Assembly (NCBI GenBank): GCA_963555755.3
Contig: OY820905.2
Location: 1,856,001-1,920,000 of the forward strand
Direction: 5' to 3'
DNA from: Nitrospirales bacterium
GTDB lineage: Bacteria; Nitrospirota; Nitrospiria; Nitrospirales; UBA8639
Length of the DNA: 64,000 nucleotides
Below the pieces are notes generated by a model, which was given only the letters and a program-made list of their open reading frames with translations, made no database searches and had not been told where the DNA came from. This document shows positions 37,156 through 38,371 of this stretch, in pieces (position 1 is the first letter of the stretch; each line of letters begins with the position of its first letter). A program made the position numbers and the translations under genes.

Positions 37156-38371
37156 CTTGTATAATGCAAGGAAGGGTTGTAGGCCAACTCACCCGAGCTG
37201 CCTCTTGTCTGAAGAGGGCATAGCCAACGTAGGGAAAAGGCTGTACCCTCACGGTATTGTGAATCCTGGCATGATAGACCGTTTGCCCTATGGGAATCAG
37301 CCCGTGACTCAGCGCAGGTCGTCATGCCCTTTCTCTGATGAACCCGAACGGTTGCCTGGGACACCAAGCCCGTATCAACAAGGTTGGGAGACAGAGCGAT
37401 GAAATCAAAATCCTCAGAATTGTTTATCGGTATCGACATTTGTAAAGCTCGATTAGACGTGGCAGACAATGCCAATTCGCTTCCCTGGTCGGTAGCCAAC
37501 AACGACGCCGGCATCGCCGCGCTGGTGGAGCGGCTCCACGTCCTTCACCCCACTCTCATCGTGATGGAAGCCACAGGGGGGCTGGAAACGCTTCTGTATG
37601 CGGCCTTAACCACCGCCGGGTTGCCGGCGGTCGTCATGAATCCCCGTCAGGTGCGGGACTTTGCCAAGGCCCTGGGCACCCTGGCCAAAACCGATGCCCT
37701 GGACGCCCGAATCTTGGCTCGCTTCGGGGCGGCGATCCAACCGGCGGTCCGGCCCATGAAAGACGCCACCACCCAGGAATTGACGGCCTTGGTGACACGG
37801 CGACGGCAGTTGCTTGCCATGCAGACGGCGGAAAAAACCCGCTTCCAGCAAGCAGCCAAATGGATCCGCAAAGATATCAACGCCCATATCGCCTCCCTGG
37901 AAAAACGGCTCCACACAATCGAAGGTCATATTGCCGAGATTATTAAACAGACCCCCGGCTGGAAAGAGAAAGATTCGCTCCTTCGAAGTGTGCCGGGGGT
38001 GGGCAACGTTTTGTCAATGAATCTCCTCAGTAGCCTGACCGAACTCGGAACGCTCAACCGAAGAGAAATCGCCACGCTGGTGGGCGTTGCCCCCTTAAAC
38101 CGCGACAGCGGAAACGTGCGCGGCAACCGAAGGGTCTGGGGAGGCCGGGCCCAAGTCCGCGCCGCCCTCTACATGGCGGCCCTGTCCGCATCACGATTTA
38201 ATCCGGTCATCAAAACATTTTATCAACGCCTGATTGCACAAGGGAAAAAACCCAAAGTGGCCCTCACCGCCTGTATGCGAAAACTTCTGGTCATTCTGAA
38301 TACGATGGTCAAAACCCAAACAGCATGGAACCCAAATCAATATTCAACCCTTGACTTTAATCACGGTTGCT
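37156..38371 (+). mobile_element. IS110-family element with a CT core at both junctions and no TIRs
   Basis: Boundaries defined against the empty site at 10300-10301; CT at 37156-37157 and 38370-38371. Confidence 0.93.
37166..37398 (+). ncRNA. predicted IS110 bridge RNA in the left non-coding end (boundaries approximate)
   Basis: Lies downstream of TATAAT (37160-37165). Two stem/internal-loop units carry target-matching segments (gtttgccct 37281-37289, gactcag 37306-37312) and donor-matching segments (acggttgc 37348-37355, acaag 37378-37382). Confidence 0.85.

What the first reader, a model, noticed from the sequence alone, without database searches (positions are those of the whole stretch)
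37156..38371. Complete IS110 bridge-RNA recombinase system programmed against a genomic hairpin repeat
Seen: a DEDD recombinase, a 241-bp left non-coding end, CT cores at both junctions and no TIRs. The reconstructed donor (circle junction) is ACGGTTG-CT-TGTAT and the target is GCATGCC-CT-GAGTC. The left end contains a stem ggcatgat-a-gacc / ggtc-gtcatgcc enclosing gtttgccct (37281-37289, left target plus core, 7/9 match), an inner hairpin atggg/cccgt, and gactcag (37306-37312, exact reverse complement of CTGAGTC). A second unit, closed by aacc/ggtt, encloses acggttgc (37348-37355, exact left donor), an inner ggg/ccc hairpin and ends at acaag (37378-37382, reverse complement of CTTGT). Known: this is the target-loop then donor-loop layout of IS110/IS621 bridge RNAs, and IS621 targets REP repeats. 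Inference: an intact, probably uncharacterised, reprogrammable ortholog with a 7-nt right target guide.
Basis: partly seen in the sequence, partly recalled or inferred. Interest (0 to 1): 0.92.

Follow-up and report, generated by a model that had tools for sequence, protein, structure and literature searches.

The report
RNA-guided transposon borrowing its stop codon
This is an intact bacterial jumping gene of a known RNA-guided kind: its eleven full-length copies all sit at one spot of a common genomic repeat that matches its predicted guide RNA, and its enzyme gene takes the last two letters of its stop codon from the DNA it lands in.

Summary
Confirmed as an IS621-clade IS110 bridge-recombinase element; a new member of a known system, not a new system. 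The genome holds 11 full-length copies and 2 broken ones, all at one 14-bp site, plus 72 empty copies of that site. The site is a 24-bp hairpin riding in a ~125-150-bp inverted-repeat element. Across 45 homolog clusters the guides change with the targets (right guide 166 of 180 positions, shuffle maximum 114). A model built without IS621 aligns over IS621's left end. Corrections: the left guide covaries only at target positions 3-7, and the donor-loop closing stem is 37343-46/37385-88. Additions: a junction promoter, handshake bases, and a recombinase stop codon completed by the target, which arose at least twice. In the circle the frame would run 81 codons on through the bridge RNA; selection for that is weak (P 0.04-0.08). 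No RNA or circle was seen directly. The scan has earlier noted other IS110 bridge elements in other genomes and this repeat family elsewhere in this genome.

The parts
37132..37155 (+). Left part of the host repeat: inverted-repeat end, then the start of the 24-bp hairpin module; left target is 37149-37155
   Evidence: Shared by the copies and by empty sites; module length from repeats with and without it
37156..37157 (+). Left CT core
   Evidence: 12 identical left junctions
37158..37398 (+). Left non-coding end (241 bp); right donor 37158-37162; -10 box 37160-37165
37172..37392 (+). Predicted bridge RNA; 5' start inferred from the -10 box, not measured; 5' stem-loop near 37216-37247
   Evidence: Folds; model R1 hits 37266-37392 equivalents in 12 places of the genome
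37268..37328 (+). Target-binding loop: outer stem 37268-80/37317-28, left guide 37281-37289 (working part 37284-89), right guide 37306-37312, handshake 37313-37314
   Evidence: Outer stem 94% paired, 11 of 12 pairs with two-sided changes; covariation with targets
37343..37388 (+). Donor-binding loop: closing stem 37343-46/37385-88, left donor guide 37348-37355, discontinuous right donor guide 37374-37382, handshake 37383-37384
   Evidence: same layout in IS621's left end
37157..37402 (+). 81 stop-free codons through the whole left end, in the frame the recombinase would continue into in the circle; ends at a TGA overlapping the recombinase ATG
37399..38373 (+). IS110 recombinase, 324 aa, D13 E57 D99 D102 and S237-G238; stop codon 38371-38373 is the core T plus two target bases
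   Evidence: PF01548 + PF02371, NF033542 over cut-off, alignment to IS621 and ISCro4, residues
38351..38369 (+). Right end, lying inside the coding sequence: -35 box 38351-38356 and left donor 38363-38369; joining the ends gives a 17-bp spacer to the -10 box
38370..38371 (+). Right CT core
   Evidence: 12 identical right junctions
38372..38492 (+). Right part of the host repeat: right target 38372-38376, rest of the hairpin to 38387, palindromic core, inverted-repeat end
   Evidence: 346 repeat loci in the genome

Best explanation
This is an IS621-clade IS110 element with an intact recombinase gene whose left end is predicted to make a two-loop bridge RNA that likely guides the enzyme, by base pairing, to recombine the element's joined ends with one site in a repeated genomic hairpin. 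Steps: (1, inferred from IS621) low read-through transcription lets the element excise or copy out as a circle; (2, sequence shown, activity inferred) joining the ends creates a sigma-70 promoter, 11 of 12 consensus bases with a 17-bp spacer; (3, shown by covariation) the target loop reads target positions about 4-14 and the donor loop reads the joined ends, with handshake bases matching the partner DNA at position 7; (4, inferred) the DEDD-serine active site exchanges strands at the CT core; (5, shown) every copy lies at the same base of a 24-bp hairpin carried by about a quarter of the genome's 346 repeat loci, mostly outside long reading frames; (6, shown) the recombinase frame has no stop inside the element and is ended by the target's first two bases, a dependence most simply explained as a harmless loss of the internal stop in lineages whose target starts with GA.
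For: Protein: Pfam and NCBIfam hits over cut-off, 34% identical to IS621 over residues 9-313, catalytic residues aligned. Sites: 12 of 12 left and 12 of 12 right junctions identical, 72 empty sites; none of the 139 other empty hairpin modules of the same type borders this element (219 modules counted, 68 target, 12 filled). Covariation, first alignment (65 of 70 elements kept, 45 clusters, 36 with a right junction): right guide 166 of 180 positions, 26 of 36 perfect over 19 different targets, shuffle maximum 114; left guide 64-91% at positions 3-7 against 39-60% shuffled, 0 of 5,000 shuffles as high; donor guide 242 of 245; donor-loop handshake complementary to target position 7 in 43 of 45, shuffle mean 31.8. 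Second alignment with metagenome loci (73 of 113 loci, 28 clusters): right guide 129 of 140, shuffle maximum 93. Close relatives show single reprogramming steps: L002 (85%) changes target position 13 and the facing guide base together; L004, L109 and L218 change left target and left guide together. Structure: 96.5% of cells paired, 15 of 21 pairs with two-sided changes, slid controls 31-53%. Model R1, built without IS621, aligns end to end on IS621's left end (29 bits, E 2e-5 in 17.9 kb, nothing in two control loci). Recent independent insertion: five copies encode identical proteins; copies 1 and 4 differ at 7 of 1,216 bases while their host repeats differ at 31 of 122.
Against: No bridge RNA, circle or recombination was observed: no end-joining contig in 8 public runs, and two RNA runs cover the element evenly, which cannot be told from DNA or read-through. 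The guide's perfectly matching 14-mer is absent from the genome. L015's right guide misses its target at 2 of 5 positions. R1 found nothing in the whole E. coli W chromosome with the strict filters, so the likeness to IS621's RNA is distant. Shuffles ignore relatedness and so overstate significance; one shuffle in the set reached the handshake count (27 of 28).
Confidence: 0.9

Rival explanations
1. Base pairing is not enough: the target hairpin is a second specificity check read by the recombinase, as reported for ISPpu10. This would add to, not replace, the best explanation.
For: The target folds into a small hairpin that begins inside the guide-matched stretch. 28 of 96 distinct homolog insertions lie in hairpins of this type. 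ISPpu10 precedent (10.64898/2026.03.19.712850, abstract and section 7).
Against: 68 of 96 homolog insertions are not in such a hairpin. The hairpin is weak (-2.3 kcal/mol as DNA) and lies 3' of the core, whereas ISPpu10's is 5'. In this genome nearly all guide-matched sites carry the hairpin, so the two cannot be separated here.
Confidence: 0.25
2. The stop-free frame is a selected switch: the integrated element makes the 324-aa enzyme, the circle makes a 405-aa form whose ribosomes cross the bridge RNA sequence and stop on the recombinase start codon.
For: Frame open through the left end in this element, copy 12, L001, L002, L004, L108 and L109; a neutral simulation on their tree kept all six relatives stop-free in 4.4% of 3,000 runs. 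13 of 13 distinct junctions with a target-completed stop have GA, against 38 of 87 among the others.
Against: The frame closes early in L015 (+91), L142 (+79) and L218; counting L218, P is 0.077. No third-position excess among variable columns (30, 26, 32), so the tail peptide is not conserved. The test was devised after seeing the pattern. The 13 junctions stem from only two origins. A C-terminal fusion is used on ISCro4 in human cells (10.1101/2025.05.14.653916, methods passage), so a tail may be neutral.
Confidence: 0.15
3. The copies spread passively, as cargo of the inverted-repeat element or by gene conversion between repeats, and the recombinase is no longer the mover.
For: Some pairs are near-identical in both element and repeat (copies 6 and 8: 1 difference and 0 plus a 4-base gap). 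No circle seen.
Against: Other pairs with near-identical elements sit in clearly different repeat variants (copies 1/4, 4/5). All 11 frames are intact. No transposase between the repeat's ends and no target duplication were found. Filled and empty sites share the outer wrapper equally (7 of 12, 35 of 72, p 0.76).
Confidence: 0.07

Closest known systems
IS621 (E. coli) bridge recombinase; PMC11208160, PMC11208158, PMC13626964 (passages and named sections read); PDB 8wt6
   Same: DEDD + serine recombinase, CT core, identical right donor, long left end with target loop then donor loop, discontinuous right donor guide followed by the same two handshake bases, junction promoter, repeat target.
   Different: 34% protein identity; left donor differs at 3 of 7 bases; different target; perfect natural 7-nt right guide (IS621's is described as 4 bp beyond which pairing is conditional); left guide sits two bases, not one, from the inner stem; IS621's stop lies 108 bases inside its right end whereas here the right end is coding and the stop is completed by the target.
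ISCro4 / IS622 (PDB 9t56; 10.1101/2025.05.14.653916, passages)
   Same: Best PDB hit (E 6e-37); same family.
   Different: ISCro4 is 88% identical to IS621; this element is a distant branch and untested.
ISPpu10 of Pseudomonas putida (10.64898/2026.03.19.712850; 10.1101/2025.01.17.633520, passages)
   Same: Multi-copy IS110 with CT core in an intergenic palindromic repeat; strong junction promoter.
   Different: Its target stem-loop is 5' of the site and shown to matter; here the hairpin runs 3' and its role is untested. Sequence relationship not tested.
ERIC-type miniature inverted-repeat elements (for the host repeat; PMC3184786, passages)
   Same: Similar size class and a shared 20-base palindromic centre: 242 matches here and 15 in E. 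coli W, 0 in reversed controls.
   Different: Different ends, no TA flanks or target duplication found. That the E. coli matches are ERIC rests on recall; no call labelled them.

Membership tests
IS110 family, IS110 group (IS621-like) | [quoted passage not shown] | tested here: met
IS110 family, IS110 group (IS621-like) | Long left end, short right end, no terminal inverted repeats | tested here: met
   Left end 241 bp; right end overlaps the gene
IS110 family, IS110 group (IS621-like) | Insertion at a 2-bp CT core with no other duplication | tested here: met
   Filled versus 72 empty sites
IS110 family, IS110 group (IS621-like) | Two-loop RNA structure with target loop before donor loop | tested here: met
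   full-length alignment to IS621's left end
IS110 family, IS110 group (IS621-like) | Guides covary with target and donor | tested here: met
IS110 family, IS110 group (IS621-like) | Handshake bases pair with position 7 of the partner DNA | tested here: met
   43 of 45 and 35 of 36; 27 of 28 and 28 of 28
IS110 family, IS110 group (IS621-like) | Promoter formed across the joined ends | tested here: met
   Consensus match with 17-bp spacer; activity not measured
IS110 family, IS110 group (IS621-like) | Short 2-3-bp sub-terminal inverted repeat flanking the donor | tested here: inconclusive
   64 of 84 bases in homologs, shuffle mean 54.3, maximum 66; 2 of 3 here
IS110 family, IS110 group (IS621-like) | Bridge RNA expressed and circle formed | tested here: inconclusive
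   Contig-level runs only; no joint found
IS110 family, IS110 group (IS621-like) | RNA-dependent, reprogrammable recombination | not testable with these tools
   Needs a recombination assay
IS1111 group | Long right end holding the RNA; 11-13-bp sub-terminal repeats about 7 and 3 bases from the ends | tested here: not met
   RNA is in the left end; best inverted match 8 bp at offsets 14 and 17; definition
ERIC-type MITE (host repeat) | Conserved palindromic centre | tested here: met
   the ERIC label of the E. coli matches is recalled
ERIC-type MITE (host repeat) | TA flanks and target duplication | tested here: not met
   No excess of duplicated flanks in 40 elements; definition

The most novel reading that the evidence does not exclude
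A bridge recombinase that senses its own state through translation: only correct insertion supplies its stop codon, while the free circle, where its promoter is on, makes a 405-aa form by translating through its own bridge RNA sequence to a stop coupled to its start codon. Natural reprogramming of this lineage is then locked to targets beginning with GA.
Probability: 0.15. Interest if true: 0.72.

Novelty: new member of a known kind. Interest (0 to 1): 0.42.

Why it matters
As it stands: a clean, recently spreading, distant (34%) IS621 ortholog with fully mapped guides, a natural 7-nt right guide, favourable handshake bases and a different donor, so a reasonable candidate for ortholog screens; and a three-tier nesting (element in hairpin in inverted-repeat element) with 72 free sites. 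The borrowed stop codon matters in practice: anyone testing the native circle or a new target in place would express a different protein end. If the read-through is selected, it would be a layer of control I did not find described for bridge systems (searches; term look-ups).

Tried and rejected
Rfam scan: nothing. Single-strand fold: not beyond shuffles. Circle junction or locus-specific empty site in public runs: none in 8 runs; the one skip joint (run X3, 24 letters on its short side) lies wholly within the repeat and can come from any empty copy. Two metatranscriptome runs cover the element evenly as contigs and cannot show an RNA start, strand or level. Autonomous partner for the host repeat: no transposase between inward-facing ends in 11 long pairs, no such ends at 6 DUF772 genes and single end-like matches at 2 of 6 Y1 loci. 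Preference of filled sites for an outer wrapper or for gene orientation: none (p 0.76 and 0.35). Conserved tail peptide: rejected. Extended -10 motif: rejected. The promoter scan found no + strand promoter in the integrated form, as expected. A first right-junction pattern had the wrong spacing and found almost nothing (corrected). The element itself was not found in the Durrant supplements, but files 3 and 4 were cut when stored and file 2 was unreadable; bioRxiv supplements are closed, so the 72-ortholog list of the ISCro4 preprint could not be checked. ISfinder was not available. A phylum-wide search gave no new close relatives (2 of 401 genomes). Two ERIC-PCR papers did not print the primer sequences in the passages read; PMC3733652 gave nothing on this hairpin. 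The tree is the quick method, not the finished search.

Full report
Observation. The gene at 37399-38373 encodes 324 aa with PF01548 and PF02371, scores over the cut-off of NCBIfam's IS110 RNA-guided transposase model, and its only two PDB relatives are ISCro4 and IS621. D13, E57, D99, D102 and S237 align with the IS621 catalytic residues (residue roles from PMC11208158, passages). The neighbours are an arginyl-tRNA synthetase and a family-9 glycosyltransferase, both on the minus strand. The closest relatives with names are Nitrospirota and Nitrospinaceae genomes.

Boundaries and target. The genome holds 13 loci of the element: 11 full length (96-100% identical, one with a 6-base deletion in the donor-loop stem), one cut at its 3' end and one 3' fragment. 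All 12 left and all 12 right junctions are identical, and the uninterrupted 14-mer occurs 72 times, so the ends are fixed without reference to the guides. The site lies in a 24-base hairpin module placed just inside the end of an inverted-repeat element: repeats have either about 4 or about 28 bases at that spot, and there are 346 repeat loci. Of 219 hairpin modules of this general type, 68 are the empty target, 12 are filled, and the other 139 never border the element. Ten of 72 empty sites fall in a crudely called reading frame.

The RNA. From 77 genome loci, 30 loci from relatives and 80 metagenome loci I fixed left junctions by the conserved core-plus-right-donor motif and right junctions by the -35 box at fixed spacing, both independent of the target guides. 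First set: 75 loci, 5 duplicates removed, 5 excluded (two with two junction motifs, two with the target loop deleted, one without flank), 65 left in 45 clusters, 36 with a right junction. The right guide matched 166 of 180 target positions (26 of 36 perfect, 19 different targets; shuffle maximum 114). The left guide matched positions 3-7 at 64-91% (0 of 5,000 shuffles as high), position 2 at 40% (153 of 5,000) and position 1 at 11%. The donor guide matched 242 of 245. The donor-loop handshake base was complementary to target position 7 in 43 of 45. Second set: 113 of 198 loci had both junctions, 40 were dropped for alignment gaps in guide columns, 73 formed 28 clusters, with the same picture (129 of 140). 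Shuffles ignore relatedness, but close pairs show matched single changes. In 8 of 45 clusters, and in this element, the left guide sits one base further 5' in a loop of the same size. A covariance model from these 25 sequences aligns over the left end of IS621 in E. coli W, though it is too weak to find it genome-wide.

How it likely works. By analogy with IS621 (PMC11208160 passages; PMC13626964 abstract and section 5), read-through transcription starts the cycle, the joined ends create a promoter (here 11 of 12 consensus bases, 17-bp spacer), and the RNA brings donor and target together at the CT core. Whether the intermediate is cut out or copied as a single strand is disputed for IS621 (10.64898/2026.08.31.748434, abstract only) and cannot be told here. 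Activity is inferred from five identical proteins, 11 intact frames, and near-identical elements in divergent repeat copies. No circle joint appeared in 8 public runs held as contigs, which drop rare variants.

The borrowed stop codon. In 63 of 96 distinct homolog insertions the recombinase stops at the TGA inside the -35 box, in 24 elsewhere upstream of the core, and in 9 at the junction; IS621 stops 108 bases inside. Here the frame runs through the -35 box and the left donor, and the stop is the core T plus the target's GA. All 13 distinct junctions of this kind have GA although the rest of the target varies, and the trait has at least two origins on a 92-protein tree (quick method). In the circle the same frame continues 81 codons through the left end to a TGA overlapping the start codon. 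That holds in six relatives but not in L015, L142 or L218; a neutral simulation gives P 0.044 (six relatives) or 0.077 (with L218), and there is no sign of protein-level constraint. I read it as most likely a tolerated accident, with a 15% chance of being a selected switch. I did not find it described for IS110 (searches; look-ups); from recall, transposase stops that overlap element ends are known in other insertion-sequence families, so the arrangement alone is not unprecedented.

Comparison and verdict. It works like IS621 and meets every membership feature that could be tested, two being inconclusive; it fails the IS1111 features. The same donor 14-mer is already in the published alignments, while this target and guide were not found in the parts that could be searched. 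The protein is in public collections without a name, in a cluster of 31. Verdict: a real, well-supported, probably uncharacterised new member of a known system, with one small unexplained quirk. Interest 0.42.

Noticed in passing
G000:C1:735341-735354: An exact copy of the 14-bp donor lies inside a long reading frame, unrelated to the element (0.016 expected by an order-6 Markov model). It could in principle recombine with any of the 72 empty targets; no hybrid junction exists in the assembly.
   Followed up: partly
G000:C1:2149029-2150900: Divergent copy (92%) whose 3' end is replaced by another element with a transposase-like frame (IS1380-like from recall); its left donor guide differs at the first base and its right end was not found within 5.6 kb.
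   Followed up: partly
G000:C1:343015-344224: Full-length copy with a 6-base deletion in the donor-loop closing stem; likely needs RNA from another copy.
   Followed up: no
G000:C1:2215825-2215907: 84-base remnant of a related left end (77%) with a different left target.
   Followed up: no
G000:C1 (3743897, 3599596, 193213, 563393, 2045258, 385931, 2421943, 2415897, 70908): Nine further PF01548 matches from other IS110 lineages; the one at 3743897 has this repeat and hairpins downstream, the one at 3599596 a hairpin upstream.
   Followed up: partly
window 10275-10422: An empty copy of the target-bearing repeat in the same window; further repeat cores at 26684, 30799, 54798 and 57290 and a free hairpin at 31876.
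   Followed up: partly
upstream of 7 of 12 filled and 35 of 72 empty sites: The repeat often sits about 60 bases inside a second, outer repeat-like wrapper.
   Followed up: partly
window 37154-37172, minus strand: The left junction creates a terminator-like hairpin with a T run facing the arginyl-tRNA synthetase gene; the insertion may uncouple it from upstream transcription.
   Followed up: no
window 37172-37179 and 38345-38352: An 8-bp perfect inverted match near the two ends; roughly 0.04 expected by chance, conservation not tested.
   Followed up: no
window 30328-30924: Truncated REP-associated tyrosine transposase-like frame interrupted by a repeat copy; 17 Y1 matches in the genome.
   Followed up: no
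window 40334-46693: Cluster of multi-heme and membrane cytochrome-like genes, one with a DMSO-reductase type II heme b subunit match below cut-off; from recall such clusters go with nitrite oxidoreductase in this group.
   Followed up: no
L005-L073 (Dehalococcoidia) and other loci: 28 of 96 distinct homolog insertions, across distant phyla, use the same hairpin type as target; I found no name for this hairpin family.
   Followed up: partly
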